Source: an uncultured Candidatus Saccharibacteria bacterium | GTDB lineage: Bacteria > Patescibacteriota > Minisyncoccia > SW-4-49-11 | Reading direction: 5' to 3' | Assembly (NCBI GenBank): GCA_964585065.1 | Contig: CAZPCB010000002.1 | Location: 166,967 to 230,966, forward strand | Length of the DNA: 64,000 bases | In this document: piece after piece, positions 8,637-22,482 of the stretch | Layout of the letters: every line of letters starts with the position of its first letter | Position numbering within the stretch: the stretch's first letter is position 1 | Translations under genes and position numbers: made by a program | The notes under the pieces: generated by a model | Databases searched by the model: none | Told to the model about the DNA's origin: nothing | The model's input: the letters and a program-made list of their open reading frames with translations, nothing else

Positions 8637-8642
8637 TATATA

Positions 8643-10262
8643 TTAATGCTTATATCCTTTACGAATATATTCTAATACCATGCGCTGAGTATTATAATAG
8701 CTTCCAATGAGGGATATTGCAGATCTTTGCATTCGGGTAAATTTTTCTCTATTATTATAAAATACATCTAGAGCATTCCCAATATTATCATACATACTAT
8801 TGATTTCCTGATACTCGTCTTCCCCCGATATTGTCCATCCATTAACATGATGTATACCACTTTCAGGCCACCAACCATCATAGGTGGATATATTGAGCAC
8901 TCCATTGAGAGAGGCCTTCATACCACTAGTTCCTGAGGCTTCATAGGATATACGAGGGGTATTAAGCCAAACATCTACACCACTAACAAGAAGTTTGGAC
9001 AATTCCATATTATAATTGGGTAAATACATAATTTTGAGATAATCGTTAGAATGCTCTTTGGCAATATCTAATATTCGTTTAATAATATCAAATCCTACAT
9101 TATCGGTGTGATAGGCCTTCCCTGCAAAAATAATATTAAGTCCTTTATATTGCTCAGCAAGTTTAGCCAGTCTCTCAATATCAGAAAATATAAGATGAGC
9201 TCTTTTGTACTCAGTAGCACGACGGGCAAATCCTATGGTGAAGGCATTGGGTAGAAAATTGATATCAGGCTGTTGTTTGAGATATTCAGCTAATATATCT
9301 TTATTGATTTGATGAGCTTGTTGTATATCAGCAATTGGAATCCCATCAATATAGCGTAAAATTTCTGGATGTGTTTCCCAGCTAGGATAATATGATTGAA
9401 ATACTTTATTCATAGATTCAGAAATCCAAGTATGACTATGAATTCCATTAGTAATAGAATCAATTATGTGTTCTGGAAACATAGCCTGAGATACTTCTTG
9501 ATGTTTTTGGGAGACGGCATTAGAATAATCAGCAAGAGACAAAGCAAGTCGCGTAAGATTAATAGTATGCTCATCTTCAAAGGCATCTTTTGGTAAATGC
9601 TGTAATTGCTCTGATGTACATATTCCTTGTAACCATTCTATAGGAAGACGAGTATGCCCGCCCAGAAGGGGAGTATGAGTAGTGAATACTACCTGAGAAA
9701 TAGGATGATCAATCACCAGTGAAATAAGGGCACTATGGCTTTCATTGAGATGAAAGGTATCAATATTATTAAGCCCAAGACTATCAAGAGCATATTTGCT
9801 CCCAAGTCCTAATATGAGTAATTGTCTTCTGAATATTTCGGGATCTGGGGAATATACTTTATCGGAAACTGCTCTGAATAAATCTGAATTCTCAGGTAAA
9901 TCAGTATCTAATAAAAGTATGGATACTGATTTATTAGAAAGAGAAGAAGTATAACTATATTCCCAAATATTGATTTGTACGGTTTCCTGTGCAAATTGAA
10001 TACTTGTTTTCCCAATTAGATTGAGTAATTTGGTATAATCCCATTCTTGAGGATTTGCAATTTGCCCTTGCTCAGCATCTAATACTTGGTCTAGATATCC
10101 ATGTTTATATAATATCCCAACACCAATTACAGGAAGTCCCAAATCAGCAAAACTTTTCATAGTGTCTCCAGCCAAAATTCCAAGACCTCCAGTATAAATT
10201 TTGATATCATCAGAAAGCCCAAATTCCATACAGATATAGGCGGTACTCGGGATATAATTCAT
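8643..10262 (-). CDS. Alpha-glucan phosphorylase (GT35 family, short maltodextrin/glycogen phosphorylase type)
   Basis: N-terminal FGLSDDIKIYTGGLGILAGDTMKSFADLGLPVIGVGILYKHGY is characteristic of the alpha-glucan phosphorylase family. Confidence 0.8.
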   Translation of the reverse strand: MNYIPSTAYICMEFGLSDDIKIYTGGLGILAGDTMKSFADLGLPVIGVGILYKHGYLDQVLDAEQGQIANPQEWDYTKLLNLIGKTSIQFAQETVQINIWEYSYTSSLSNKSVSILLLDTDLPENSDLFRAVSDKVYSPDPEIFRRQLLILGLGSKYALDSLGLNNIDTFHLNESHSALISLVIDHPISQVVFTTHTPLLGGHTRLPIEWLQGICTSEQLQHLPKDAFEDEHTINLTRLALSLADYSNAVSQKHQEVSQAMFPEHIIDSITNGIHSHTWISESMNKVFQSYYPSWETHPEILRYIDGIPIADIQQAHQINKDILAEYLKQQPDINFLPNAFTIGFARRATEYKRAHLIFSDIERLAKLAEQYKGLNIIFAGKAYHTDNVGFDIIKRILDIAKEHSNDYLKIMYLPNYNMELSKLLVSGVDVWLNTPRISYEASGTSGMKASLNGVLNISTYDGWWPESGIHHVNGWTISGEDEYQEINSMYDNIGNALDVFYNNREKFTRMQRSAISLIGSYYNTQRMVLEYIRKGYKH

Positions 10263-10310
10263 TGTATTTGTATTATGTATATCTATTAGTATAGCATATT
10301 ATTGGGATAA

Positions 10311-10332
10311 CAAAAAATCCCCTTATCGGGGA
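10311..10332 (-). terminator. Intrinsic terminator after rpmA (UCCCC-GAUAA-GGGGA + U-run on the minus strand)
   Basis: Hairpin TCCCCttatcGGGGA preceded on the + strand by an A6 run. Confidence 0.5.
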
Positions 10333-10353
10333 CATCTTGTTATGAGAGCTAAT

Positions 10354-10626
10354 TTAGATTACAGATACTGTTTTGATGATATGCTTTTTTCCAGTAAATG
10401 AAACTTTACGAGCTTTTCCAAATTCAATAACTCCATTTGCAATTGCATATAATGTGTCATCTGCTCCACGAGAAACATTTTTTCCAGCATGAAATTTAGT
10501 TCCACGTTGTCGAATAATGATATTCCCTTTTTCTACTTTTTGTCCAGCATATAGCTTAACTCCAAGATATTTTGGGTTTGAATCTCTACCTAAGGCTGTA
10601 GAACCACCAGCTTTTCTATGTGCCAT
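10354..10626 (-). CDS. rpmA: 50S ribosomal protein L27
   Basis: [24 protein letters not shown]...[13 protein letters not shown]. Start moved to the internal ATG at 10626. Confidence 0.9.
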
Positions 10627-10663
10627 ATCAAATAATGTTACTATATATGGTATAATAATACAT

Positions 10664-11047
10664 ATGAAATACCAATTTGTCAAGAATAGTGAAATTGTAC
10701 TGTTGATTATATCTGCAATATTGATAGGAGGGATTGCGTATTTTATTGGAAAAATTCAAACTTTAGAATCCCAACCAAATACAATACAAGTTGTGTATCC
10801 AGATGCTATTGCAATAAAAAAGGATACTATCAATACGTCTAATCAAGCCGCGGCCCACATCAATAGTACTATTGAGACAAAATTACAAACAGGTAAAATT
10901 ATAGCGAGTAAAAATGGAAAACGATATTATTATGAATCCTGTAGCGGTGTAAATCGTATTAAGCCAGAAAACAGAATATATTTTGATACGAAAGAACAAG
11001 CTGAAGCCAAGGGATTAACTATTGCTTCTGGATGTAAAGCCTTATGA
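10664..11047 (+). CDS. Small membrane-anchored protein with C-terminal Cys-pair module (YYYESCSG...IASGCKAL)
   Basis: Start at the internal ATG at 10664, immediately after a TATAAT box. N-terminal TM helix. Stop overlaps the next start (ATGA). Confidence 0.45.
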
Positions 11048-11853
11048 GAAAAACCTATATTCCCCGAACATATACCAAAAAGAAATCACCTGCTCGCAAA
11101 GCAAATCGATTCATAGAAATATTCCAATTTTTTATTTGGATTATATTTTTTGGGGGAATTGGATATGCCTTATATTCACCCATATTAAATATTGTGAATA
11201 TAGATATTCGAGTAGATAATGAAATATTACAAAAAAATATTAAATCAAAGTCTGAAGATTTAATACAAGCTCATAATCATTGGTATTATAATAATAAGAA
11301 TATTCTCCTTGCTCGTAGTGATATTCTTGAGAGAGAATTACAAAAAGAATTCCCACAAATTAAACATATTACTATTAAAAGGACAATAAATCGTTCATTG
11401 GAACTCACCATTCAACTTAGAAATCCCTTATTCACTATTTGTGAAAATACTATCTGCTCCAATATTAGTGATGATGGCGTCAATATTGGTAATGATTCTC
11501 TATCGGCTTCACTCATATCATTAACTGGGATTACTCCTAAGTCTCGTGGAGAAATTGTAGTTTCAGAGAGAGAAATAGCTTGGTTTAAAACTATTGTGGA
11601 AATGTATAATCAAATTGATGGCGTAAAAGTATCCTCAATTGCCATACAGCAAAAAGCAGAGAATAGAATATTGGGGGTATTCGTCTATACAGAACAAGGA
11701 TATTATATTATGCTAGATTTAGATACAGATATTATTTATCAAGCAGGGGCTTTAAAACAAGTCTTTATATCCCAGCTGCCTCCAGATCAAAGGCCTAATC
11801 TTCAATATATTGATTTACGGGTAAAGGATAGAGTATATTATAAGTTTAAATAA
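11044..11853 (+). CDS. FtsQ/DivIB-like cell division protein (POTRA-type)
   Basis: Basic N-terminus, single TM segment, then POTRA-like region (ILLARSDILERELQKEFPQIKHITIKR). Confidence 0.4.
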   Translation: MRKTYIPRTYTKKKSPARKANRFIEIFQFFIWIIFFGGIGYALYSPILNIVNIDIRVDNEILQKNIKSKSEDLIQAHNHWYYNNKNILLARSDILERELQKEFPQIKHITIKRTINRSLELTIQLRNPLFTICENTICSNISDDGVNIGNDSLSASLISLTGITPKSRGEIVVSEREIAWFKTIVEMYNQIDGVKVSSIAIQQKAENRILGVFVYTEQGYYIMLDLDTDIIYQAGALKQVFISQLPPDQRPNLQYIDLRVKDRVYYKFK

Positions 11854-11856
11854 TGT

Positions 11857-13650
11857 ATGAAACAGCATATTATCAAGTGGTATAATAAAATTCCCCTATG
11901 GGGATATGTTTTAGGTATTACGATAATACTTGCTGTGTTGGCATTTGGATCAAGTGCTGGAGATTCGTTAACAGTTGATGAAAGTCCTCATATTGGAGCT
12001 GGATATTCATATATTGCAAAGGGGGATTATCGACTGAATCCAGAACATCCACCTTTATTAAAAATGTTATCAGGGTCTTCTATTTGGCTTGGAGCAAAGC
12101 TCACGGGGAATACCGTTAATTTCCCAGATACTATTCCTGCTTGGACAGAAAAGGTTAATGCCCAATGGGATATTGGATATGCATTTCTCTTTCAATCAGG
12201 TAATGATGCTAATACTATTATATGGTGGGCTCGACTACCAACTATATTGATATTACTTTTAGGAGGGATTTATTTGACCTATTCGGTATATTATCATACT
12301 AAGAGTAAAGCTATTAGTGTTATTACCATTATATTATATGCATTTTCTCCTAATGTAATTGCTCACGGACGTCTTGTGACAACTGATATTATTGCAAGTA
12401 TGTCATTTATTATTGCTATTGATATTTGGGTGCGTTATCTCAAAAATCCTACCATTAAATATATTGGTTTACTTATTGTAGCTATATCATTTGCCTTTTT
12501 GTCTAAATTTTCTACTATTCTTTTATTGCCATTATTTTTTATGACCGGATTTGGGTATATTGCAGTAAAGTATTGGGGTAAAAAAAATATAATACGTAAA
12601 GGTGGTATTCTATTGCGAGATGCCCTTATTATAGCTATGGGAGTATTTGTAATTATCAATGGAGTATATTATTATACTATGCGAAATATGAGTGTTGATA
12701 CACAAATGAAATTAATTCAAGAATCATTCCCGCAAGATAATGCTATATCTCAAATTACAAAAAACAGTTTATCCCAGGTGGTTAATACTCCAGGGCTACA
12801 ATATTTTGGACAATATCTTTTAGGTCAGTCTATGGCAATACAAAGAGTAGGTGGGGGGAATACTACCTTTTTATTAGGGAGATTTACTAATCAGAGTTTT
12901 ACTGAGTATTTTCCAATCACCTATATATTAAAAGAACATTTAGGTATACTTGCGGTATTAGCAAGCTTACTACTAGTGAGTATAGTTCTTGGGATTCGAG
13001 CTATTCAGCATAAAAAGTTGAAATTCAATAGAAAATGGTTGCTCAAATACTGGTATGAATGGACGATAATCACTATGATACTCTTATATTGGTTTATTAG
13101 TATAAGAGGGAATTTGAATCTTGGAATACGACATATATTACCTGCCGTCATATTAACTTATATAATTATTGCTATTGGAATTGTACGTATATTATTACCT
13201 TTGAAATTTTCAAAAATAATTCTTGGTATATTTTTGATATGGTATATTGCTGCCACATTACTTGCATATCCTTCTTATCTCTCTCATTTAAATGTATTGG
13301 CAGGTCATGATCAAGGCTATCAAATCTTTACTGATTCTAATCTTGATTGGGGTCAGGACTTAAAACGATTGCATACATGGACGAAAGAGCAAAATATTGA
13401 TACACTATATATAGATTATTTTGGAACTGGAGATGTGAAATATTATCTTCCAGATATCAATATAATACCAGTAAAATCGAATGATGGACCTAAAATTGGC
13501 TATACTGCAATTAGTGCGACTATGTTTCAAGATTCATTTTATCTGAAACAAAAAAATCCAAATTATCAAGAATATTGGTGGTTAGCATGGAAAAAGCCAG
13601 ATTATATTATTGGGAATTCCATATTAATTTATTATAATAGCAGATATTAA
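11857..13650 (+). CDS. GT-C family glycosyltransferase (ArnT/PMT-like, GT39/GT83-type)
   Basis: Polytopic membrane protein. N-terminal loop DESPHIGAGYSY...NPEHPPLLK is typical of ArnT/PMT transferases. Confidence 0.65.
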   Translation: MKQHIIKWYNKIPLWGYVLGITIILAVLAFGSSAGDSLTVDESPHIGAGYSYIAKGDYRLNPEHPPLLKMLSGSSIWLGAKLTGNTVNFPDTIPAWTEKVNAQWDIGYAFLFQSGNDANTIIWWARLPTILILLLGGIYLTYSVYYHTKSKAISVITIILYAFSPNVIAHGRLVTTDIIASMSFIIAIDIWVRYLKNPTIKYIGLLIVAISFAFLSKFSTILLLPLFFMTGFGYIAVKYWGKKNIIRKGGILLRDALIIAMGVFVIINGVYYYTMRNMSVDTQMKLIQESFPQDNAISQITKNSLSQVVNTPGLQYFGQYLLGQSMAIQRVGGGNTTFLLGRFTNQSFTEYFPITYILKEHLGILAVLASLLLVSIVLGIRAIQHKKLKFNRKWLLKYWYEWTIITMILLYWFISIRGNLNLGIRHILPAVILTYIIIAIGIVRILLPLKFSKIILGIFLIWYIAATLLAYPSYLSHLNVLAGHDQGYQIFTDSNLDWGQDLKRLHTWTKEQNIDTLYIDYFGTGDVKYYLPDINIIPVKSNDGPKIGYTAISATMFQDSFYLKQKNPNYQEYWWLAWKKPDYIIGNSILIYYNSRY

Positions 13651-13654
13651 TTCC

Positions 13655-14116
13655 ATGGCAGAAATACAAAACAATTCAGAATCAATACCCCCACTAGAAC
13701 ACAATACTCCATCAGAACAAAGTATTGAGCGTAATTTCGAACAAATTACTCCTTTAGAGCAAAATAATCCAGTGGTGGAAAAGTATATAGAGAGCTCAGC
13801 ATATCAGGAGGCGCAAACTCATATCAAACAAGTAGTAGAAGAACAAAAAGTTGTACATCAACAAAATCCTATTGCAAAACCTTTATCTCCAAAATTACAA
13901 GAAAAATATGGATGGTTATTATCAATTCCAGAAGAGACAAGAACAGAAGTTTCTGTTAAATTGATTACCACAAAAGGTAAAGATATATTAGAGGTAATAC
14001 ATGCTTTTTTAGCTATTGAAGATTATGTAGGATTAGATAGATTGGAGGAATCTTTGAATGAAGTCTATCCAACTTTGATTCAAGAAGGTATACTAAGAGA
14101 TATACACGATAAATAA
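13655..14116 (+). CDS. Hypothetical protein
   Basis: 153-aa ORF directly upstream of the VirD4-like gene. No recognisable motif. Confidence 0.4.
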   Translation: MAEIQNNSESIPPLEHNTPSEQSIERNFEQITPLEQNNPVVEKYIESSAYQEAQTHIKQVVEEQKVVHQQNPIAKPLSPKLQEKYGWLLSIPEETRTEVSVKLITTKGKDILEVIHAFLAIEDYVGLDRLEESLNEVYPTLIQEGILRDIHDK

Positions 14117-14124
14117 ATATCAAT

Positions 14125-16548
14125 ATGATAATTGTACTCTATGTACTGCTAGTGCTATGGGTTATTGCTATAACATTTATTATAGCAACGGTTATTATAC
14201 ATCCATTTTGGGAAAAACGTCGTATTAATCGGGGACTTGCAATGACACAATATCAAATTATTGTACCTCGCAATATCCCTAATCCAGAAGCTAATATCAA
14301 AGATTTAATTAGTGTGATGGAACAGGTATATGCGGGGTTCTCTTATCTCAAATTAGAGAAATTAGTCAATCGTCTTAGATATGGGAGTCCTTATATTTCT
14401 CTTGAAATTGTAAGCCCTACCGAGCGAGATGAAATTAATTTTTATATTGGAGTTCCAAAAGGGTATGAATCTATTTTTGAAAAACAAATTCATGGAGTAT
14501 ATCCAGAAGCTGAGCTGAAGCATATTACCGATTATAATGTATTACTCCCTGAAGGAGAAATTCGGGCCGGATACTTACAGCTTAAAAAACCCTATATTCT
14601 CCCTATTAGAACCTATAAAGAATTAGAAACTAATCCTTTGAATGTGATTACCTCGGCTCTGTCTAAAATTCAGGAAGATGAAAGTGCAGTGGTACAGATT
14701 TTAATACAAAGAGTATCGGATGATTGGAGTAGTAGTGGTAAGAAGGTAGTGAAAAAAATGCAAAAAGGAGAAAGCTTCAAAAATGCATATAATGAAGTTT
14801 TTGGGGGGATTGATAAGCAATTTTTGAAAACTTTAGGTTCTGCTACAAAGTCTAAATCAACGGAAGTCTCTGAGCCAAAAATGTTAAGTCCTCAGGAGTC
14901 TATTATGATGGAGAAAATTAGTCAAAAAACAGGTAAAATTGCCTATGCGACTAATATTAGATTATTAACTATATCTCGAGATAGCCAAAGAGCAGATGTA
15001 TTATTTGATCAATTAGAGGGTGCTTTTTCTCAATTTGCCAATGGAGATCTGAATCAATTTAAAGTAATCAAATATCCTATAAAGAATATTAAACAATTTA
15101 TTTATACCTTTATATTCCGATTATTCTCAGTAAAAGAATCAATGTTATTAAATAGTGAGGAATTGACGAGTATATATCATATTCCTGCTGTGGGAGTGGA
15201 GACTCCAAAAGTAACTTGGATTACTTCTAAAACCTCACATCCTCCAGTTGATTTGCCAAAGGAAGGATTATTATTAGGGAAGAATATATATCGTGGTGAA
15301 GAAATTGAGGTAAGAATTGCAGAAGAGGATAGGAGACGTCATATGTATCTTATTGGACAAACAGGAACAGGTAAAAGTTCTTTGATGAAAAAAATGATAC
15401 AAGAAGATTTGCAAGCAGGACATGGTCTTGCTCTATTAGATCCTAATGGAGATTTTGCCGTGGAAGTATTGGGTATGATTCCAGAGCATCGTATGCAAGA
15501 TGTGATTTATTTTAATCCTGCTGATACTAATTATCCTATGGGACTTAATATTCTGGAAGCCCGCACACATGAGGAAAAAGATTTCTTGATACAAGAAATG
15601 ATTTCTATTTTTTATAAATTGGTATCTGATCCAAGTATGATAGGGCCAATATTTGAGCATAATATGCGAATGGCAATGTCAGCTTTAATGTCAGATGTCA
15701 ATAATCCAAGAACTCTGGTAGAAATACCTCTTATGTTTACTGATGAGGCATTTAGGAGACAAGTATTATTAACAGTTGACGATCCTGTCATACGGCATTT
15801 TTGGGAAAAAGAATTCCCTGCTACACAAAAAGGATCTCAAGCAGGAGATACACTTGGATATCTATTGAGTAAATTAGGGCGATTCATAGAAAATGAAATG
15901 GTACGTAATATTATTGGGCAATCTCGTTCAGCCTTTGATTTTCAAGATATTATGAATTCAGGTAAAATTTTGATTGGTAATCTTTCTAAAGGAGGGTTGG
16001 GAGAACAGAATAGCAATTTATTAGGTATGTTACTGGTATCCAAATTACAAATGGCAGCCTTTAAGCGAAATGAAATTCCAGAAGAACAGAGAAGAGATTT
16101 TTATTTGTATTTAGATGAGTTTCAAAACTTTACCACAGATAGTATATCTACCATTCTCTCTGAGGCTCGCAAATATCGATTATGTCTCATATTGGCCCAT
16201 CAATATATAGGACAATTATCTGAGGGGATAAAGAATGCAGTATTTGGGAATGTGGGTACTGTGGTGAGTTTCCGTATTGGCTCCGAGGATGCTGAAATTA
16301 TTGCTCAGCGTATGCAACCATATTATAGTGCTGAGGATTTAGTGTCAATTGACAATCTAAAGTCAGTAATAACCTTGATGATACAGGGTAAGACCAGTAA
16401 AGCTTTTAATATGGATATTATATTCGCTGATAAGACGAATGCATCTTTACAACAACGGGTAATATTAGAGTCTCGCAATAAATATGCCAAGCCGGCAGCT
16501 GAAATACGAGCGGATATATCGAGTCGTACGCAAAGTATGTTCGAATAG
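14125..16548 (+). CDS. Type IV secretion/conjugation coupling protein-like ATPase (VirD4/TrwB/TraG family)
   Basis: N-terminal TM helix. Walker A HMYLIGQTGTGKSS followed by LLDPNGDF, matching the TrwB GATGTGKS...IVDPNGD arrangement. Walker B-like YLYLDEFQNF. Confidence 0.6.
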   Translation: MIIVLYVLLVLWVIAITFIIATVIIHPFWEKRRINRGLAMTQYQIIVPRNIPNPEANIKDLISVMEQVYAGFSYLKLEKLVNRLRYGSPYISLEIVSPTERDEINFYIGVPKGYESIFEKQIHGVYPEAELKHITDYNVLLPEGEIRAGYLQLKKPYILPIRTYKELETNPLNVITSALSKIQEDESAVVQILIQRVSDDWSSSGKKVVKKMQKGESFKNAYNEVFGGIDKQFLKTLGSATKSKSTEVSEPKMLSPQESIMMEKISQKTGKIAYATNIRLLTISRDSQRADVLFDQLEGAFSQFANGDLNQFKVIKYPIKNIKQFIYTFIFRLFSVKESMLLNSEELTSIYHIPAVGVETPKVTWITSKTSHPPVDLPKEGLLLGKNIYRGEEIEVRIAEEDRRRHMYLIGQTGTGKSSLMKKMIQEDLQAGHGLALLDPNGDFAVEVLGMIPEHRMQDVIYFNPADTNYPMGLNILEARTHEEKDFLIQEMISIFYKLVSDPSMIGPIFEHNMRMAMSALMSDVNNPRTLVEIPLMFTDEAFRRQVLLTVDDPVIRHFWEKEFPATQKGSQAGDTLGYLLSKLGRFIENEMVRNIIGQSRSAFDFQDIMNSGKILIGNLSKGGLGEQNSNLLGMLLVSKLQMAAFKRNEIPEEQRRDFYLYLDEFQNFTTDSISTILSEARKYRLCLILAHQYIGQLSEGIKNAVFGNVGTVVSFRIGSEDAEIIAQRMQPYYSAEDLVSIDNLKSVITLMIQGKTSKAFNMDIIFADKTNASLQQRVILESRNKYAKPAAEIRADISSRTQSMFE

Positions 16549-16603
16549 AAATATAGCTAGTATATGATATACTTAATAGTATATTGAAATTATAATAGAG
16601 ATT

Positions 16604-17578
16604 ATGAGTAATATTTGTCTTACAGGAATACAGCCGACAGGAAAATTACATATTGGGAATTATTTTGGGGCAATGAAACCTCTATTAGAATTGTCACAGA
16701 ATTCTGAAATTGATAGCATATTTATTTTTGTGGCGAATCTTCATGCTCTTAATAGTATTAAAGATGCGGAGACATTAAAGGCTTATACTACTGATATTGT
16801 ACTTGATTATCTTGCTTTGGGGCTCGATATCAATAAAACCAGTTTATTCCTACAATCAGATATACGAGAGCTTACTGAGCTTACTTGGATATTCAATAAT
16901 CTTGTTAGTGTTGCCTATCTCGAGCGTTCACATGCCTATAAAGATGCTATTGCTAATGGGAAAGAAGCAAGTATGGGATTGTTTGATTATCCGGTATTAA
17001 TGGCAGCAGATATATTATTATATAAATCAACTATTGTACCCGTAGGGCAAGATCAAAAACAACATATTGAGATAGCACAAAAAATTGCAGATAAATTTAA
17101 TTCTCAATATGGAGAAATTTTTATTAGACCAAAGCCCTATATTCAATCAGAAACTGCTATTGTACAGGGACTTGATGGGAGGAAAATGAGTAAATCATAT
17201 AAGAATACCATAGAATTATTTGAAGCTGAGAATAGTATTCGTTTAAAAGTCAGTAAAATAATAACAGACTCCAAAGCACCAAATGAACCAAAAGACCCAA
17301 CAACCTGTAATATATTATCTTTATATCGTCTATTTGCATCCCCAGAGGAAATTACTCATATTGAGGGTCAATATCGAGAGGGGACTATATCATATCGTGA
17401 AGCAAAAGAATTATTAGCTGAAGCAATTTTAAGCTATTTTGCCGCTATTCGCCAAAAGCGACAAGAATTATTATCACAACCAGAATATATACAAGATATA
17501 TTACATAAAGGATCTCAAAATGCTCAAACTATTGCAAAAGAAACTATGAATCAAGTTCGACAAGTAGTAGGTATATAA
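16604..17578 (+). CDS. trpS: Tryptophan--tRNA ligase
   Basis: GIQPTGKLHIGNY (HIGH region) and KMSKS motif. Confidence 0.9.
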   Translation: MSNICLTGIQPTGKLHIGNYFGAMKPLLELSQNSEIDSIFIFVANLHALNSIKDAETLKAYTTDIVLDYLALGLDINKTSLFLQSDIRELTELTWIFNNLVSVAYLERSHAYKDAIANGKEASMGLFDYPVLMAADILLYKSTIVPVGQDQKQHIEIAQKIADKFNSQYGEIFIRPKPYIQSETAIVQGLDGRKMSKSYKNTIELFEAENSIRLKVSKIITDSKAPNEPKDPTTCNILSLYRLFASPEEITHIEGQYREGTISYREAKELLAEAILSYFAAIRQKRQELLSQPEYIQDILHKGSQNAQTIAKETMNQVRQVVGI

Positions 17579-17584
17579 TAAAAA

Positions 17585-19195
17585 TTATAAACTATCTTTA
17601 AAGATATCAGCAATGGTATCATTCATATCTTTTGGCTCATCATTGTCTATTGAATGAGAGAGTTCATAGTTATGAGCTGGAGCGGTGATTTTTTGCGCAA
17701 TAAAATTAATACCAACAATGGATTCTATAAATTCAGCAATACTATCTAATATAATATTGCTATGTTTTTCTAATCTATCTCGATAAAAATTAGACTCAAC
17801 TGCAATAGTTAGGGTTTCATCAGATAATTCAATAGGTTGGGTTTTAGCAAATATAACACTAAGACTTTTATTTGATTTGCTAAGAGACTTATTAATTTCA
17901 GGATAGAGTTTTTGGACATTATCAATATCAGGAGATACAGTTTTTCTGATGGGAGCTGGAGCTTTGATCTCAGCTTTAATAGGTTCTTGTATTTTAGGTT
18001 CGATTTCATATTTAGCTTTAGACTCTTTAATCTCGGTTTTTGTGATAGATTTTTTTAATTCTTTTGTCCTAGGGATAGTATCAATTTCAGTATCAGATGG
18101 GGGAGTATTCTGGCCCCATATTTGAGCAATAATTAATTCTAGGGGTAAATAGGGGATATAGGCAGAATGAGTTTGAGATTTTACTCTTTCTAATTCTTGT
18201 ATGAATATAATAATTTTTGACTGAGTAATAGCTTTAGAGAGCTTGGTAAGCTTATCATACTCAGACTCTAATAATGGGCTTATATCAAGTAAATTAGGGC
18301 TAATTTGTATCAGGAATATTGAATGAGATATGGTCAGTAAGTTCAATAACAATTGTGGTATTCCAAATCCCTCATCATAAAGATTATGAATATGTCTAAT
18401 GGCGGGATACAAATCTCCCTTGGAGAGAAATTCTAATAATGTGTAGGCTTCAAAATAGGAGTTTTTACCAAGAATTGTTGAGGCAAATTCAGTATTAATA
18501 TCTTTTATTCCAGAGGAAATAAGTTTGCCTAAAATACTCTCAGCATCTCTGGCTCCTCCCATAGCCTGTAGGATAACTTGATTTACCACAGACTCATCAA
18601 TAGTAACTTTTTCGGCTTTTGTGATATACAGAATTTTTTCTCTAAGCTCAGCTGAAGATAGGGGTTTGAAATCAAATTTTTGTACACGAGATAAAATGGT
18701 AGGGAGCATTTTATGGGCATCGGTTGTTGCTAGTATAAATATGGTATTCTTTGGGGGTTCTTCAAGAGTTTTCAATAATGCATTAGAGGCATCCTTGGTG
18801 AGCATATGAGACTCATCAATAATATAAATTTTATATCCATTTTTTTGAGAGGGGGCAAAACGCACAGCTTCCTTGAGATTGCGAATTTCATCAATACCGC
18901 GATTAGAGGCGGCATCAATTTCAATTAAATCAATAAAAGCATTGTCATTAATTGCCTTACAATTATCACAAATATTACATGGTTCAGCAGAATTCTCTTT
19001 GCGCTTGAGACAATTGAGTGCCTTGGCAAAAATTCTTGCCATAGTAGTTTTACCAGTACCACGAGGTCCACTAAATAAATAAGAATGCACCGTACGATTA
19101 TGAATAATAGCATTCTGAAGAGTGGTCTTCACAATTTCTTGTCCAACAACTTGTGTGAAAGTTTGAGGTCTATAAGTTCGGTATAAGGCTGGCAT
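17585..19195 (-). CDS. dnaX: DNA polymerase III subunit gamma/tau
   Basis: YRPQTF..VVGQE...SGPRGTGKTT clamp-loader AAA+ motifs and zinc module CNICDNCK. Confidence 0.9.
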   Translation of the reverse strand: MPALYRTYRPQTFTQVVGQEIVKTTLQNAIIHNRTVHSYLFSGPRGTGKTTMARIFAKALNCLKRKENSAEPCNICDNCKAINDNAFIDLIEIDAASNRGIDEIRNLKEAVRFAPSQKNGYKIYIIDESHMLTKDASNALLKTLEEPPKNTIFILATTDAHKMLPTILSRVQKFDFKPLSSAELREKILYITKAEKVTIDESVVNQVILQAMGGARDAESILGKLISSGIKDINTEFASTILGKNSYFEAYTLLEFLSKGDLYPAIRHIHNLYDEGFGIPQLLLNLLTISHSIFLIQISPNLLDISPLLESEYDKLTKLSKAITQSKIIIFIQELERVKSQTHSAYIPYLPLELIIAQIWGQNTPPSDTEIDTIPRTKELKKSITKTEIKESKAKYEIEPKIQEPIKAEIKAPAPIRKTVSPDIDNVQKLYPEINKSLSKSNKSLSVIFAKTQPIELSDETLTIAVESNFYRDRLEKHSNIILDSIAEFIESIVGINFIAQKITAPAHNYELSHSIDNDEPKDMNDTIADIFKDSL

Positions 19196-19206
19196 ATATC
19201 TGTGTA

Positions 19207-19653
19207 TTATTTACGGAAGACAAAAAATTTATAACCAACAAAGCTCACAATCATTGATCCCCCTGTTCCTAATAGTTTACCAATAATTGCCGGATCTATC
19301 AATTGAGAGGGGATAAAAGATAAGGATAGTGGGAGGAGAATAGTTGCTGGCAATATGAATATGGTTAGCCTTAATATAGTGGTATTAACAATAAATCCTA
19401 AGGCATTCACAATGAGAAAACTCCCAAATTCTCGAGGCTTAGTTTTTTTCTTATGTTGAAAGGTAATATATTTATTGGCAAAATAACTAAATATAATAGC
19501 AGTAATTATGGAGATGAGATTAATATAGATAATAGAATGTGATTCATTAGAAATATTAAAGCTATATTTCAATAAAGCAAATACCCCGATATCAATCGAG
19601 GTATTTAGAACTCCAATAATAGCAAAGAGTATTATTTCACGTGTTTTTACCAA
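19207..19653 (-). CDS. GtrA-family membrane protein (polysaccharide synthesis/translocation-associated)
   Basis: Four-TM small protein of GtrA type. Apparent TTG start; no in-frame ATG near the N-terminus. Confidence 0.6.
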   Translation of the reverse strand: MVKTREIILFAIIGVLNTSIDIGVFALLKYSFNISNESHSIIYINLISIITAIIFSYFANKYITFQHKKKTKPREFGSFLIVNALGFIVNTTILRLTIFILPATILLPLSLSFIPSQLIDPAIIGKLLGTGGSMIVSFVGYKFFVFRK

Positions 19654-20339
19654 GGCTGTATTTTTAGTGGTTCATCAGAATTTTCTTCTTCAGATTTAGT
19701 ATCCTCTGAAGCTTCCTCTAGAAGGGGAGTATCATCTACAATTTCCTCATCAATGTCAATATTAGGGACTACTTCAGGAGTATCATTGAGATTAGATGGA
19801 GCATTCGTATTTATAATTCCAAGTGCTTGAGCTGATACTACATTTTCAATAGCTGCCCATTCACTTTTTTTGGTAAGTGGGGTGAGAATTGTTACTTCAT
19901 CACCAGGAGATAATCTAAAATAGGTTACAGAAGCAGTTAAAAGTCTATATAATTCATTTCCTACTTTTGCAAAATAACTATTATCTTGATAAATAATATT
20001 CCCAATAGCTCGACGTCGTGGAGCGGGTCCAATTTGCTTATAAATAAAAGCTCCATCAGCGGTAATAGTAAGCTTTAATTGATCTCCTTCAATTAATTTA
20101 GATTTACTAGCATAATTAGCAGGTACTGGATATTGTTTTTTGGTGTCATCCACCATATATTCACCAGTAAATTCTCCAAGAACAACTTTTTCAGCTTGCC
20201 CAACTACACTTACATAGGATTGATTAGCCCCTGCAACTTGAGTCAACATAGCACGAGCTTGATTGAGTCGAGCTTCTGCTTCTTTTACGATTTGTTCTAA
20301 CTCAGCAATTTGCTGAGATTTGTCCTCAGTATTTGACAT
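19647..20339 (-). CDS. Hypothetical protein (N-terminal coiled coil, acidic C-terminus)
   Basis: 230-aa ORF. TGaTATACT motif about 30 nt upstream. Confidence 0.4.
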   Translation of the reverse strand: MSNTEDKSQQIAELEQIVKEAEARLNQARAMLTQVAGANQSYVSVVGQAEKVVLGEFTGEYMVDDTKKQYPVPANYASKSKLIEGDQLKLTITADGAFIYKQIGPAPRRRAIGNIIYQDNSYFAKVGNELYRLLTASVTYFRLSPGDEVTILTPLTKKSEWAAIENVVSAQALGIINTNAPSNLNDTPEVVPNIDIDEEIVDDTPLLEEASEDTKSEEENSDEPLKIQPW

Positions 20340-20598: not shown

Positions 20599-22482
20599 TT
20601 AATCTAGGGTACCAATATAATTATATCGAGCTATATACATATCTCTATTACTAGTAGGTGTGAGTGAGATTTGATTAGTACCGCCAATACCAAATGTTGC
20701 AAAACTATTAAAGTCTCCCGCTATTACAAAACCTCCCAGTACCTTCCCAATTGCTATTCCTCTATCTGAACCCATTCCTCCAGCTCTTCGAGCCCAAGCA
20801 AGAGTCCCATCAGTATTATATTTAGCTATAAATACATCATCACTACCACTACTGGTCAGAATAGTCTGATTTGTTTCTCCCGGTCCAAAAGTAGCTGTTC
20901 CATTAAATTGCCCTGTTATAATACTACTTCCATCTATATTCCTCATTATATCAAAACTGCTATCATCATTTAGGCCCCCAGCTTTTTTAGCCCAGATTAA
21001 ACTACCATTATCACTATATTTAGCTATAAATATATCTGAACCACCACTGCTACTTAAGATGGTTTGATTTGTCTCTCCTGGTCCAAAAGTAGCTGTTCCT
21101 TGAAGGTTTCCTATTATAAGACTATCAGTATTAGGTAATGTTCTAACTGCTATGGGGCCATCCCAACCAATTCCACCAACCTTTCGAGCCCAAGCTAAGG
21201 TTCCATTAGTATTATATTTGGCTATAAATCCATCTATATCAGTAGTATTCGTCAATATAGTTTGATTTGCTTCTCCTTGTCCAAGAGTAATATTTCCATA
21301 AAAAGCTCCAATTATGATAGAGCTACCATCATTTAACATACTAACTCCTGTACTATCATCTATATCTGTACCACCAGCTTTTCGAGCCCAAGCAAGAGTC
21401 CCATCAGTATTATATTTAGCTATAAAAGCATCTCTATTCCCAGCATTAGCTACTAGAATAGTCTGATTTGTTTCTCCCGGTCCAAAAGTAGCTGTTCCCT
21501 GAAAGTATCCTACACTAATACTAGTCCCATCAGATAAAGTACTAATACCATAGCCACGTCCATAATCTCCTACTACACTACCAGTAACTCCTTTAGCCCA
21601 AGCAAGAGTCCCATTGGCATTATATTTAGCTATAAATGTGTTATTTGAGATAATACTATTTAATGTTGTTTGATTTGTTTCCCCTTGTCCAAACACTGCA
21701 GTCCCACTAATATAACCCGTTGTAATACTGCTCCCATCAGGAAGACAGCTAATACCATAGCTTATATCATAGTCATTTCCTCCATCCCGCCTAACCCAAG
21801 CCAAACTACCATCGATATTATATTTGGCTACAAATATATCATATCCACTCCCAACAGATGTACGTATGGTCTGATTTGTTTCTCCTGGGGCGAAGGTTGC
21901 ATTTCCTTGAAATAATCCTGTCACTATACTGCTCCCATCAGAATTAGTACACATTCCCCCTGTATTAATAATTTCTCCAGGACTTCCCCCAGCCCGCTTT
22001 GCAAAGTTAACTGGTGTTGCTGGAAGGGTAAAAGTTGTACTTTGAGATTCAGAAGTGAAAGTGGTATTATCAACACTATTAATTCCTCCCACTCCAATTT
22101 TACCATTTGTACTTTTTACTATATAAAAACCACTATTATTGATATCGGTGGAATATGAAGGGATGCTCGCAATATAATTGGGTACTAATACAGATAAATT
22201 TACCTTACCCGTACAAGAGGGTGCTCCTGTTTTACAAATTTCTAGAGAACTACCAGCAGGAACATTCTGGACATCAGTAGGATAAGCTCCAGTTTTGAGT
22301 GCATATTGTTCTATAGCTTGATAGAGAGTAAGGGCATCAGCTTTACGCTTATTGTCATTGACTTCAGTAATAATTCTACTTGGATTAAGAGTATATAATA
22401 CTGTAGCAAAGAGAACAGCAAGTAGAGCAATAACAAGAAGTATTTCGAGTAGGGTAAAACCTTTTTTTGTATAGGGTTTCAT
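20599..22482 (-). CDS. Type IV pilin-like protein with C-terminal SBBP-type beta-propeller repeats (putative pilus adhesin)
   Basis: Prepilin N-terminus MKPYTKKGFTLLEILLVIALLAV (class III signal, GFTLLE). About 8 tandem repeats of the form G..D.S.GIS.L.DGSSI..G.F.GTATFGPGETNQTIL....DAFIAKYN.DGTLAWARK.GG. Confidence 0.7.
   Translation of the reverse strand: MKPYTKKGFTLLEILLVIALLAVLFATVLYTLNPSRIITEVNDNKRKADALTLYQAIEQYALKTGAYPTDVQNVPAGSSLEICKTGAPSCTGKVNLSVLVPNYIASIPSYSTDINNSGFYIVKSTNGKIGVGGINSVDNTTFTSESQSTTFTLPATPVNFAKRAGGSPGEIINTGGMCTNSDGSSIVTGLFQGNATFAPGETNQTIRTSVGSGYDIFVAKYNIDGSLAWVRRDGGNDYDISYGISCLPDGSSITTGYISGTAVFGQGETNQTTLNSIISNNTFIAKYNANGTLAWAKGVTGSVVGDYGRGYGISTLSDGTSISVGYFQGTATFGPGETNQTILVANAGNRDAFIAKYNTDGTLAWARKAGGTDIDDSTGVSMLNDGSSIIIGAFYGNITLGQGEANQTILTNTTDIDGFIAKYNTNGTLAWARKVGGIGWDGPIAVRTLPNTDSLIIGNLQGTATFGPGETNQTILSSSGGSDIFIAKYSDNGSLIWAKKAGGLNDDSSFDIMRNIDGSSIITGQFNGTATFGPGETNQTILTSSGSDDVFIAKYNTDGTLAWARRAGGMGSDRGIAIGKVLGGFVIAGDFNSFATFGIGGTNQISLTPTSNRDMYIARYNYIGTLD

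What the first reader, a model, noticed from the sequence alone, without database searches (positions are those of the whole stretch)
13655..16548. Orphan VirD4/TrwB-like coupling ATPase with no other type IV secretion genes nearby
The 807-aa protein has an N-terminal TM helix. Its Walker A HMYLIGQTGTGKSS followed by LLDPNGDF mirrors the TrwB/VirD4 signature (GATGTGKS...IVDPNGD). No VirB4, VirB6, relaxase or other conjugation genes are in the window. Its neighbours are a GT-C glycosyltransferase and a 153-aa unknown. It could serve DNA uptake or export, or protein delivery to a host, together with the pilin repertoire. It could also be a HerA/FtsK-like housekeeping translocase.
Basis: partly seen in the sequence, partly recalled or inferred. 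Interest (0 to 1): 0.55.

Follow-up and report, generated by a model that had tools for sequence, protein, structure and literature searches.

The report
Patescibacteria chromosomal T4SS coupling-protein-like ATPase
This gene encodes a membrane-anchored ATPase of the type IV secretion "coupling protein" family; nearly all ultra-small Patescibacteria carry it on the chromosome far from any secretion genes, a pattern published in 2025, and its job there is still unknown.

Summary
ORF 14125-16548 (+) encodes an 807-aa protein with one N-terminal TM helix, intact Walker A/B motifs and best profile matches to T4CP families (TrwB_AAD_bind, TraG-D_C; PDB TrwB, DotL). FtsK scores below its cutoff, and HerA matches only around the P-loop. 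No VirB4, VirB6 or relaxase lies in the 64-kb window.

It is not an oddity. It belongs to a huge Patescibacteria-wide family (Pfam DUF8128 + T4CP ATPase) found in at least 599 species genomes at 37-46% identity over the full length. The context is always housekeeping genes. No T4SS or relaxase gene lies within 8 kb in any of 82 loci.

A 2025 paper already reports that Patescibacteria T4CP homologues are almost never near virB4 and may be exapted.

New here:
- The nearest non-CPR relatives are the T4CP-position genes next to relaxases in Bacillaceae, actinomycete and haloarchaeal conjugative plasmids.
- Full-length homologues occur in lytic Bacillus phages that are not known to encode any T4SS.
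- By predicted fold, the DUF8128 domain resembles the VirB4 N-terminal domain.
- A small, fast-evolving ORF (here 13655-14116) almost always sits immediately upstream.

Verdict: an ordinary member of a known family with an open function. Interest is moderate.

The parts
14125..16548 (+). 807-aa DUF8128-type T4CP-like ATPase, whole gene
   Evidence: ORF. Pfam TrwB_AAD_bind, DUF87 and TraG-D_C all above gathering scores. The identical protein carries precomputed PF26449 DUF8128. More than 4,132 homologues. AF2 model pLDDT 84.
14125..14238 (+). N-terminal membrane anchor (residues 1-38; hydrophobic core 2-27, then basic EKRRINR)
   Evidence: Kyte-Doolittle 3.19. AF2 helix 2-38. A single TM helix is present in all 30 aligned CPR homologues. 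N-out/C-in topology is inferred from the positive-inside rule.
14239..15264 (+). DUF8128 domain (about residues 39-380), an alpha/beta domain with a VirB4-N-terminal-domain-like predicted fold
   Evidence: Precomputed PF26449. The domain-only AF2 model has pLDDT 83 and pTM 0.83. In Foldseek against PDB, the only significant hits are 14 TrwK/VirB4 chains, E 2e-7 to 5e-5. No sequence-level link to VirB4.
15265..16548 (+). T4CP-type ATPase domain (about residues 381-807): RRRH403-406, Walker A 411-418, helical insertion ~482-612, Walker B D664-E665, H692-Q693, TraG-D_C region 659-721
   Evidence: Pfam coordinates. Invariant columns. TrwB alignment. Foldseek TrwB E ~3e-11, TMt 0.61-0.66 over ~430 columns. 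Secondary structure.
13655..14116 (+). 153-aa small ORF immediately upstream (8-nt gap); candidate partner or adaptor. Variable acidic N-terminal half, conserved ~75-aa helical C-terminal domain
   Evidence: 63 homologues, no Pfam. Conservation pattern. A small same-strand ORF sits directly upstream in 68 of 76 related loci, 54 of them with a gap of 40 nt or less. It evolves faster than the ATPase.
17585..20339 (-). Block of genes often syntenic with the ATPase across Patescibacteria: DnaX (17585-19195), GtrA-like (19207-19653) and a 230-aa unknown (19647-20339). Here the block is inverted and separated from the ATPase by TrpRS
   Evidence: Among 82 loci, the families of these three genes lie within 6 genes of the ATPase in 26, 12 and 28 loci, usually downstream on the same strand. 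Pfam identities. This shows shared ancestral gene order. It is not evidence of joint function.

Best explanation
The gene encodes the Patescibacteria version of a type IV coupling protein (T4CP).

Identity (shown):
- It is an NTP-driven ATPase of the VirD4/TrwB branch of the FtsK-HerA superfamily, presumably hexameric.
- It is tethered to the cytoplasmic membrane by one N-terminal helix.
- All catalytic motifs are intact and strongly conserved.
- It descends from the T4CPs of monoderm/archaeal (MPF-FATA-type) conjugation systems, where its homologue sits beside the relaxase.
- In Patescibacteria it has become a vertically inherited, near-universal chromosomal gene in a housekeeping context, so having no T4SS genes nearby is its normal state.

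Mechanism (inferred):
- The cytoplasmic DUF8128 domain, whose predicted fold resembles the VirB4 N-terminal domain, serves as a docking module.
- The C-terminal ATPase ring with its helical insertion binds and feeds a substrate (nucleic acid or protein) across or to the membrane.
- The small, fast-evolving protein encoded immediately upstream acts as an adaptor or regulator.
- The most likely partner machine is the relaxase-less T4SS that most Patescibacteria encode elsewhere, often near dnaA, and whose gene cluster lacks its own coupling protein.
For: Identity:
- T4CP profiles are the best matches.
- Foldseek aligns the C-terminal domain to nearly the whole of TrwBdeltaN70, TMt 0.61-0.66.
- Plasmid homologues in a B. 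subtilis 27.5-kb plasmid, Niallia and Embleya lie directly next to a replication-relaxation-family relaxase. Those operons also hold a separate VirB4, a VirB6-like gene, TcpE/PrgI and a cell-wall hydrolase.
- Those plasmid proteins hit all 82 CPR members at 1e-50 to 1e-80, with hhalign E 5e-68 over 722 columns. The same plasmids' VirB4s essentially do not hit.

Functional constraint:
- Over 100 invariant columns, including Walker A/B, RRRH and HQ, across 30 sequences at 43-88% identity to the window protein.

Core-gene status:
- More than 4,132 homologues and at least 599 species genomes across many CPR classes.
- Conserved gene order with DnaX, GtrA and the 230-aa family.
- No GC anomaly.

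Link to a T4SS elsewhere:
- VirB4 is present in 2,417 of 3,035 Patescibacteria genomes and is of MPF-FATA ancestry.
- The S. epibionticum T4SS cluster lacks a recognizable coupling protein and relaxase.
- T4CP genes are commonly encoded away from virB4.

Partner ORF.
Against: - No T4SS component or relaxase lies within 8 kb in any of 82 loci or in the 64-kb window.
- T4CP homologues are found in more genomes (2,918) than VirB4 (2,417), and only 148 of 5,713 are near virB4.
- The t4cp homologue of S. epibionticum was reported as non-essential while the T4SS genes are essential. I did not verify that this gene is the DUF8128 type.
- Full-length homologues exist in lytic Bacillus phages, for which no T4SS is known (my knowledge; none was seen in the one context read), so the module can work without a T4SS.
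- There is no direct evidence for a substrate, for oligomeric state, or for interaction with the upstream ORF.
- I could not check whether this genome has a T4SS.
Confidence: 0.5

Rival explanations
1. It is an exapted, T4SS-independent translocase. It derives from a T4CP but now works on its own, or with the small upstream protein, as a membrane-anchored motor for another process. Candidates are moving nucleic acid across the membrane (uptake of host DNA or RNA, or export) or handling the chromosome at the membrane.
For: - More prevalent than VirB4 (2,918 versus 2,417 of 3,035 genomes) and almost never near virB4. The authors themselves raise exaptation, and report the Se homologue as non-essential.
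- Full-length homologues occur in lytic Bacillus phages (SPO1-like SP8, CP-51, phage G gp156, 0305phi8-36, JL), which are not known to carry a T4SS.
- Stable housekeeping synteny, including DnaX, in 26 of 82 loci.
- The CPR clade gained a TM anchor that the Bacillus plasmid homologues lack.
Against: - The closest characterisable relatives are bona fide T4CP-position genes.
- The CPR T4SS cluster lacks its own T4CP, which leaves a vacancy that this protein would fill.
- Synteny with DnaX may be only inherited gene order.
- No substrate or partner is known.
- TM7x has a separately annotated ftsK, so replacement of FtsK is not indicated.
Confidence: 0.3
2. It is a divergent VirB4-type ATPase (N-terminal domain plus ATPase domain) rather than a coupling protein.
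For: - In Foldseek, the full-length model's best PDB hits are TrwK/VirB4, E 3e-16 over ~900 aligned columns.
- The N-terminal domain alone matches only TrwK/VirB4 chains, E 2e-7 to 5e-5.
- Overall size and two-domain layout resemble VirB4.
Against: - No Pfam or NCBIfam VirB4 profile match beyond the P-loop.
- PDB sequence search finds TrwB and DotL but not TrwK.
- Plasmid VirB4s do not hit the family, whereas the same plasmids' T4CP-position proteins do at 1e-50 to 1e-80.
- hhalign against VirB4 gives P 3e-4 (probability 39%) for the full length and 0.57 for the NTD.
- In plasmids the homologue coexists with a separate VirB4.
- Foldseek does not report aligned ranges, so NTD-to-NTD correspondence is inferred.
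Confidence: 0.07
3. It is a HerA/FtsK-like housekeeping DNA translocase for repair or chromosome segregation.
For: - DUF87 (HerA central domain) scores 33.7 bits, above its cutoff.
- HerA structures appear among Foldseek hits at ~3e-11.
- PADLOC HerA models give weak hits.
- The context is housekeeping genes, near an FtsQ-like gene (POTRA_1 in the L001 orthologue) and DnaX.
Against: - FtsK_SpoIIIE scores 14.8 bits, below its cutoff of 24.
- HerA matches cover only the P-loop stretch 390-471.
- No NurA or other HerA partner is among the neighbours.
- T4CP-specific profiles cover ~300 residues, and TraG-D_C is present.
- Strong orthology to plasmid T4CP-position genes.
Confidence: 0.05
4. It is a decaying remnant of an integrated conjugative element.
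For: It is a T4CP homologue without the rest of a transfer system.
Against: - The reading frame is intact with invariant catalytic residues across classes.
- The same conserved chromosomal context recurs in very distant CPR lineages.
- No integrase or relaxase is nearby, and GC content is normal.
Confidence: 0.02

Closest known systems
VirD4-type T4CP homologues of Patescibacteria (Quinonero-Coronel et al. 2025, Microb Genom, PMC12102498)
   Same: Same phylum-wide phenomenon: 5,713 T4CP homologues in 2,918 of 3,035 genomes, only 148 near virB4, with exaptation suggested. Members of this family carry PF02534/PF10412 and NCBI T4SS names, so they would be captured by that T4CP profile search. That last step is inference.
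   Different: The paper does not describe the DUF8128/VirB4-NTD-like domain, the conserved small upstream ORF, the DnaX-region synteny or the phage homologues. I did not verify from its tables that this exact family is among its hits.
T4CP-position 'DUF87 domain-containing' / 'type IV secretory system conjugative DNA transfer family' proteins of Bacillaceae, actinomycete and haloarchaeal conjugative plasmids (e.g. WP_345805471.1, WP_338473401.1, WP_331738717.1)
   Same: Homologous over both domains: 22-31% identity over 71-88% of the query, phmmer 1e-50 to 1e-80, and hhalign 5e-68 for the full length and 9e-21 for the NTD.
   Different: - The plasmid genes sit next to a relaxase and a full MPF-FATA gene set. 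The CPR gene never does.
- The Bacillus versions have no TM helix.
- The haloarchaeal versions are split into a ~400-aa DUF8128 ORF plus a ~1,000-aa ATPase ORF.
TrwB of plasmid R388 (PDB 1E9R/1E9S/1GKI), the archetypal T4CP
   Same: Best solved-structure sequence match, 3e-8, with the RH-Walker A-DPNGD and Walker B regions aligned. Fold match has TMt 0.61-0.66 over ~430 columns, i.e. nearly all of TrwBdeltaN70. Both have an N-terminal membrane anchor.
   Different: TrwB has no ~350-aa domain between the membrane anchor and the ATPase. Identity is only ~16%. TrwB works with a relaxosome, and none is found here.
TrwK/VirB4 of R388 (PDB 7O41-7O43, 8RTB, 8RTD)
   Same: Two-domain layout. The DUF8128 model matches only VirB4 chains in PDB, and the full-length model's top hits are VirB4.
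   Different: No sequence-level relationship is detectable for the N-terminal domain. The ATPase domain is closer to T4CPs by every sequence test. There is no VirB3, VirB6 or VirB8 context.
Bacillus phage proteins: phage G gp156, 0305phi8-36 ORF201, SP8 'VirD4 component-like protein', phage JL (PHROG 5156, function unknown)
   Same: Full-length homologues: phrog_5156 E 3e-86 over residues 40-805, tblastn at 20-22% identity over 82-91% of the query, and Foldseek E 7e-47 to 1e-32 with TMq up to 0.69.
   Different: These are encoded by lytic phages and their function is unknown. I know of no T4SS in these phages, but I read only the SP8 context.
Cagbeta-CagZ of Helicobacter pylori (PDB 8DOL): a T4CP with a small regulatory partner
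   Same: The Cagbeta structure is among the fold hits. By its PDB title, a small protein regulates the T4CP ATPase. This is a possible analogy for the small upstream ORF.
   Different: This is analogy only. No homology between the 153-aa ORF and CagZ was tested or seen, and the interaction is not modelled.

Membership tests
Type IV coupling protein (VirD4/TrwB/TraG/TraD; Pfam PF10412, PF02534, PF12696) | P-loop ATPase domain whose best profile matches are T4CP families, with intact Walker A and B | tested here: met
   TrwB_AAD_bind 1e-11 (44.8 bits against a cutoff of 20.5) over residues 399-700, and TraG-D_C 26.6 against 22. NCBIfam TraD families give the top hits. PDB TrwB 3e-8 and DotL 3e-6. 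The motifs are invariant.
Type IV coupling protein (VirD4/TrwB/TraG/TraD; Pfam PF10412, PF02534, PF12696) | N-terminal membrane anchor | tested here: met
   One TM helix at residues 2-27, present in all 30 CPR homologues. Canonical VirD4/TrwB have two.
Type IV coupling protein (VirD4/TrwB/TraG/TraD; Pfam PF10412, PF02534, PF12696) | All-alpha domain inserted in the nucleotide-binding domain | tested here: inconclusive
   The model has an all-helical insertion at ~482-612 between core strands. The TrwB_AAD_bind profile spans it. Foldseek aligns ~430 columns to the ~420-residue TrwBdeltaN70. No explicit superposition of the AAD was possible.
Type IV coupling protein (VirD4/TrwB/TraG/TraD; Pfam PF10412, PF02534, PF12696) | Orthology to genes occupying the T4CP position in conjugative elements | tested here: met
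   Plasmid homologues lie next to relaxases and coexist with a separate VirB4. phmmer 1e-50 to 1e-80. hhalign 5e-68.
Type IV coupling protein (VirD4/TrwB/TraG/TraD; Pfam PF10412, PF02534, PF12696) | Genetic linkage to a relaxase and/or mating-pair-formation genes | tested here: not met
   None in the 64-kb window. None within 8 kb in 82 related loci. Linkage is usual for T4CPs but not obligatory.
Type IV coupling protein (VirD4/TrwB/TraG/TraD; Pfam PF10412, PF02534, PF12696) | Recruits substrates to a T4SS channel | not testable with these tools
   Requires genetics or biochemistry.
Pfam DUF8128 (PF26449) | Match to the PF26449 profile in the N-terminal region | tested here: met
   Precomputed hit on the identical protein and on essentially all listed homologues. 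The local Pfam copy did not report this model. A profile of the domain finds 4,485 50%-identity clusters at E<=1e-3.
VirB4 (TrwK/TrbE/CagE; Pfam PF03135) | VirB4-type N-terminal domain | tested here: inconclusive
   At fold level there is a match: the only significant PDB hits of the DUF8128 model are 14 TrwK chains, E 2e-7 to 5e-5, TMq 0.40-0.46. At sequence level there is none: no PF03135 hit, no PDB sequence hit, hhalign 0.57. Aligned ranges are not reported.
VirB4 (TrwK/TrbE/CagE; Pfam PF03135) | ATPase domain groups with VirB4 rather than VirD4 | tested here: not met
   T4CP matches are far stronger. Plasmid VirB4s give no hit or only a weak one (2e-7, restricted to the Walker region).
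VirB4 (TrwK/TrbE/CagE; Pfam PF03135) | Encoded with VirB3, VirB6 and VirB8 | tested here: not met
   Absent from the window and from 82 loci.
HerA / FtsK-SpoIIIE translocases | Best profile match to HerA or FtsK over the motor domain | tested here: not met
   FtsK_SpoIIIE 14.8 bits, below its cutoff of 24. DUF87 matches only residues 390-471. HerA NCBIfam, PDB and PADLOC hits are weak and confined to the P-loop.
HerA / FtsK-SpoIIIE translocases | Typical partners or context (NurA for HerA; multi-pass TM domain and gamma domain for FtsK) | tested here: not met
   No NurA among the neighbours. There is a single TM helix and no FtsK gamma-domain hit.

The most novel reading that the evidence does not exclude
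The DUF8128-type ATPase is a self-sufficient, T4SS-independent membrane translocase that is core to Patescibacteria biology. One possibility is that it is the motor moving host-derived nucleic acid (DNA or RNA) across the epibiont membrane, with specificity set by the fast-evolving small protein encoded upstream. It would belong to a wider, unrecognised class shared with lytic Bacillus phages and retaining a VirB4-like N-terminal domain, perhaps a form close to the VirB4/VirD4 ancestor.
Probability: 0.25. Interest if true: 0.75.

Novelty: new member of a known kind. Interest (0 to 1): 0.4.

Why it matters
Patescibacteria may account for a large share of bacterial diversity. They live as epibionts that cannot make their own nucleotides, amino acids or lipids. 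Their T4SS is essential in the one genetically tractable species, yet it lacks a relaxase and an in-cluster coupling protein.

A coupling-protein homologue that is near-universal, highly conserved and always encoded elsewhere is therefore one of two things. It may be the missing substrate gate of that essential machine, or it may be a repurposed translocase with its own role. Either answer would say what these cells move across their membrane.

This particular locus adds nothing unique. The family-level observations made here give concrete handles for experiments:
- the VirB4-like fold of DUF8128;
- the conserved, fast-evolving upstream ORF;
- relaxase-adjacent plasmid orthologues;
- phage homologues in phages not known to encode a T4SS.

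Tried and rejected
- HerA/FtsK assignment: rejected on profile scores.
- Anti-phage defence component: PADLOC gives only mad8 at 1e-14 and weak HerA P-loop hits, and no defence neighbours are present. Rejected.
- Mobile-element remnant or recent transfer: GC is 0.32-0.34, like the rest of the window. There is no integrase or relaxase, and the chromosomal context is conserved across classes. Rejected.
- Sequence-level homology of DUF8128 to the VirB4 NTD: the PDB profile search found nothing, and hhalign against four plasmid VirB4s gave 0.57. Not demonstrated, so only the fold-level match stands.
- A single family for the small upstream ORFs: two groups, of 27 and 23 members after HMM iteration (25 and 20 of them directly upstream), are not related by HMM or hhalign. 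The window's 153-aa ORF aligns to the first group only weakly, at hhalign P 0.002 and probability 13%. Left as 'positionally conserved, homology unproven'.
- Pfam at E<=1 on the small ORFs and on the 230-aa syntenic family: nothing meaningful.
- Promoter/terminator scan of 10200-17700: counts are no different from shuffles, and no + strand terminator-like site lies downstream of 12868, i.e. around the 153-aa ORF, the ATPase gene or TrpRS. This is uninformative beyond being consistent with co-transcription.
- pLS20 as the model plasmid: its T4CP (gene 48; two TM helices; IPR003688) is described as a classical VirD4, so I do not equate the two.
- The representative-library search lists only the top 150 hits, so it could not reveal whether VirB4 proteins appear in the weak tail.
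- Whether Patescibacteria lack FtsK: only one literature pointer was found, that TM7x has an annotated ftsK. Not pursued further.


Full report
**1. What is at the locus**

ORF 14125..16548 (+) encodes 807 aa. The range given in the finding starts at 13655, which is the start of a separate 153-aa ORF (13655..14116) ending 8 nt before the ATPase start.

- Residues 2-27 are strongly hydrophobic (Kyte-Doolittle 3.19) and are followed by EKRRINR. AlphaFold2 models them as one long helix, 2-38.
- Walker A is at 411-418 (GQTGTGKS), preceded by an invariant RRRH.
- LLDPNGDF is at 437-444, and Walker B is D664-E665.
- All of these are invariant among 30 homologues that are 43-88% identical to the window protein.

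Pfam scans of all 57 ORFs of at least 110 aa found only housekeeping functions and three type IV pilin-like proteins. The housekeeping set includes Ile-, Trp-, Ser- and His-tRNA synthetases, DnaX, GyrB, ParAB, MreB, FtsA, Mur ligases and glycogen and rhamnose genes. There is no VirB4, VirB6, VirB8 or relaxase. GC content around the gene (0.32-0.34) matches the rest of the window.

**2. Which family**

Sequence profiles favour T4CPs:
- Pfam TrwB_AAD_bind scores 1e-11 over residues 399-700 and TraG-D_C scores 6e-6. Both are above their gathering scores.
- DUF87 (HerA central domain) matches only residues 390-471.
- FtsK_SpoIIIE scores 14.8 bits, below its cutoff of 24.
- NCBIfam's top hits are TraD coupling proteins.
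- A profile of 30 homologues finds TrwB (3e-8) and DotL (3e-6) among solved structures. HerA is at or above 0.003, and TrwK/VirB4 is not found.

**3. It is a phylum-wide core gene, not an orphan fragment**

- The homology search returned more than 4,132 proteins. Nearly all listed are ~800 aa with the same domain string (PF26449 DUF8128 + PF10412 + PF01935, with or without PF02534 and PF12696). Where named, they come from Patescibacteria.
They include Staskawicz-, Doudna-, Uhr-, Magasanik-, Woese-, Davies-, Sung-, Lipton- and Moranbacteria and Saccharimonadales, at 37-46% identity over the full length.
- The identical protein is on record with DUF8128, DUF87, TrwB_AAD_bind and TraG-D_C.

I called ORFs on 82 loci (81 relatives plus the window) and clustered the neighbours.
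- No locus has a second ATPase of this superfamily.
- phmmer with plasmid VirB4, VirB6, PrgI and relaxase queries found no homologue of any of them within 8 kb in any locus.
- What recurs instead is a housekeeping neighbourhood. DnaX (26 loci), a ~200-aa unknown family (28 loci, usually immediately downstream) and a GtrA-like protein (12 loci) lie within six genes. In the window the same three genes form the inverted block 17585-20339.

This is the signature of ancient vertical inheritance.

**4. Published context**

Quinonero-Coronel et al. 2025 (PMC12102498) searched 3,035 Patescibacteria genomes.
- They found VirB4 in 2,417 genomes, forming a monophyletic clade nested in MPF-FATA.
- They found 5,713 VirD4-type T4CP homologues in 2,918 genomes, only 148 of them near virB4.
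- They note that the S. epibionticum t4cp is far from virB4 and was not essential, and that exaptation 'cannot be ruled out'.

Wang et al. 2023 (PMC10633639) state that the essential Se T4SS cluster lacks recognizable coupling and relaxase proteins.

The 'orphan T4CP' is therefore a described, unexplained property of the phylum. That this DUF8128 family is among the paper's T4CP hits is my inference, drawn from the family's PF02534/PF10412 content and NCBI names.

**5. Nearest relatives outside the phylum**

tblastn against plasmids found 573 records. Full-length matches covering both domains, at 22-31% identity, occur in Bacillus (282 records), Streptomyces/Embleya, haloarchaea and Sulfolobus.

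In a B. subtilis 27.5-kb plasmid, a Niallia plasmid and an Embleya plasmid, the homologue lies directly beside a 'replication-relaxation family' relaxase. It sits inside a Gram-positive-type transfer operon that also holds a separate VirB4-sized ATPase, a VirB6-like protein, TcpE/PrgI and a lytic transglycosylase. In those plasmids it occupies the coupling-protein position.

- These plasmid proteins hit every one of the 82 CPR members at 1e-50 to 1e-80.
- hhalign gives E 5e-68 over 722 columns, and 9e-21 for the N-terminal domain alone.
- The same plasmids' VirB4s do not hit, or hit only around the Walker region.
- In haloarchaeal plasmids the two domains are separate adjacent ORFs.

This origin agrees with the MPF-FATA ancestry of the Patescibacteria VirB4.

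**6. Homologues in phages**

- PHROG 5156 (function unknown) matches residues 40-805 at 3e-86.
- tblastn finds 54 phage records, nearly all from Bacillus phages. They include SPO1-like myophages (SP8, annotated 'VirD4 component-like'; CP-51; Goe16), phage G gp156 and 0305phi8-36 ORF201.
- Foldseek against BFVD confirms full-length structural matches: phage G at 7e-47, phage JL at TMq 0.69, and 0305phi8-36 at 1e-32.

I know of no T4SS in these lytic phages, and none appears in the one genomic context I read (SP8). The two-domain module can therefore apparently function without one.

**7. Structure**

The full-length AF2 model has pLDDT 84.
- In Foldseek against PDB, the top hits are TrwK/VirB4 chains (3e-16 to 1e-12) aligned over ~900 columns.
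- TrwB follows (~3e-11, ~430 columns, TMt 0.61-0.66), then HerA and Cagbeta.

A separate model of residues 30-385 has pLDDT 83 and pTM 0.83.
- It matches only TrwK/VirB4 chains significantly: 14 hits at 2e-7 to 5e-5, with TMq 0.40-0.46.
- The next hit, chlorite dismutase, is at 3.7e-3.

DUF8128 therefore has a VirB4-N-terminal-domain-like predicted fold. No sequence-level relationship could be shown, and Foldseek does not print aligned ranges, so this remains a fold-level inference.

The C-terminal half contains a RecA-like core with an all-helical insertion at about 482-612, where TrwB carries its all-alpha domain.

All 30 CPR members have the single N-terminal TM helix, and the Bacillus plasmid homologues have none.

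**8. The small upstream ORF**

- In 68 of 76 loci with an upstream gene, a small ORF lies on the same strand directly before the ATPase. In 54 of these the gap is 40 nt or less, and several overlap by 4 nt.
- The small ORFs fall into at least two groups that HMM and hhalign cannot connect. The window's 153-aa protein aligns to one of them only weakly, at P 0.002.
- The 153-aa protein is real. It has 63 homologues, all in close relatives, with a variable acidic N-terminal half and a strongly conserved C-terminal domain of ~75 aa.
- It evolves faster than its neighbour. It is 60% identical where the ATPase is 88% identical, in adjacent genes RLZZ223_290 and RLZZ223_289. Within the two groups, median identities are 28% and 35% for the small ORF against 45% and 48% for the ATPase.

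A conserved position combined with rapid divergence suggests an adaptor or regulator. No interaction was tested.

**9. Interpretation**

*Shown.* The gene is an intact, strongly constrained member of the T4CP branch. It is orthologous to relaxase-adjacent plasmid T4CPs, anchored by one TM helix, and vertically inherited across Patescibacteria in a housekeeping context.

*Inferred.* It forms a hexameric NTP-driven motor or receptor. DUF8128 is a docking domain. The upstream protein modulates it.

*Which machine it serves.* I favour the T4SS encoded elsewhere in the genome. Both share MPF-FATA ancestry, the T4SS cluster lacks its own T4CP, and T4CPs are often encoded apart from the rest of the system. 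My confidence in the whole statement is about 0.5. The identity part alone is about 0.9.

*Main rival (0.3).* A T4SS-independent, exapted translocase. In its favour:
- T4CP homologues are more prevalent than VirB4.
- The S. epibionticum homologue is reported as non-essential.
- The gene is never linked to T4SS genes.
- Homologues occur in lytic phages.

*Minor rivals.* Divergent VirB4 (0.07), HerA/FtsK-type housekeeping translocase (0.05) and decaying element remnant (0.02) are disfavoured.

**10. Verdict**

The finding is real and correctly classified, but the locus is an ordinary member of a known, already-discussed family. It has Pfam and NCBI annotation and a 2025 survey behind it. Novelty is 'new member of a known kind'.

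The unanswered question is what a near-universal, T4SS-unlinked coupling protein does in these epibionts. That question is of real interest and is now somewhat better framed. I score interest at 0.4.

Noticed in passing
window 19647-20339 (-): A 230-aa protein with no Pfam, PHROG or PADLOC match: an N-terminal coiled coil followed by a conserved C-terminal region (motif ...PNYASKSKLVEGD.LKLTI..DG.F.YKQIGP...). Its family lies within 6 genes of the T4CP-like gene in 28 of 82 Patescibacteria loci, usually immediately downstream, often followed by GtrA and DnaX. Function unknown.
   Followed up: partly
window 20599-22482 (-), 34956-36206 (+), 38540-39805 (+): Three unusually large proteins (627, 416 and 421 aa) with N-terminal type IV pilin methylation motifs. 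The first has DUF5122 beta-propeller-like repeats and the second a Laminin_G_3/ConA-like lectin domain. They look like adhesin-type giant pilins and are not T4SS VirB2 pilins.
   Followed up: no
window 61028-63052 (+): A 674-aa highly acidic, coiled-coil-rich protein with no Pfam match, encoded immediately downstream of FtsA (59756-61018). Possibly a lineage-specific division or cytoskeletal factor.
   Followed up: no
L001 12431-17006 (relative with 59% identical ATPase, 1.17-Mb JGI contig): Between the T4CP-like gene and TrpRS this relative carries six extra genes. One is a 144-aa PEMT/ICMT-like protein. The other five are ORFs of 234, 155, 251, 192 and 529 aa without Pfam hits. All are absent from the window, where TrpRS follows the ATPase after 55 nt. 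This is a variable insertion next to the conserved gene.
   Followed up: no
L083 7758-12051 (Haloterrigena plasmid pHTS138) and other haloarchaeal plasmids: The DUF8128 domain and the ATPase are separate, overlapping adjacent ORFs (399 aa + 1,034 aa) downstream of a 1,099-aa 'conjugal transfer protein' and a pilin. This shows that the N-terminal domain can act as an independent subunit.
   Followed up: partly
Bacillus phage G gp155/gp156 (BFVD G3MBM1, G3MBM2): Phage G carries two differently sized proteins with consecutive gp numbers, presumably adjacent genes, that both match the model: gp156, 825 aa, E 7e-47, and gp155, 549 aa, E 7.6e-15. The pairing is reminiscent of a VirB4/T4CP pair, in a phage.
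   Followed up: no
window 10517-13650 (+): Tightly packed same-strand genes precede the small ORF: a 176-aa unknown, a 269-aa protein whose L001 orthologue carries POTRA_1 (FtsQ-like), and a 597-aa GT-C/PMT_2 glycosyltransferase. Gaps range from a 4-nt overlap to 4 nt. The GT-C linkage recurs in only 4 of 82 loci, so it is local, not a family trait.
   Followed up: partly
L079 (Candidatus Saccharimonadales, DATIHP010000024.1) 8001-10433: The Saccharimonadales member appears longer: my crude ORF call gives 959 aa against ~810 aa elsewhere. Whether the extension is real and what it contains was not examined. This matters for comparison with the S. epibionticum Tn-seq data.
   Followed up: no
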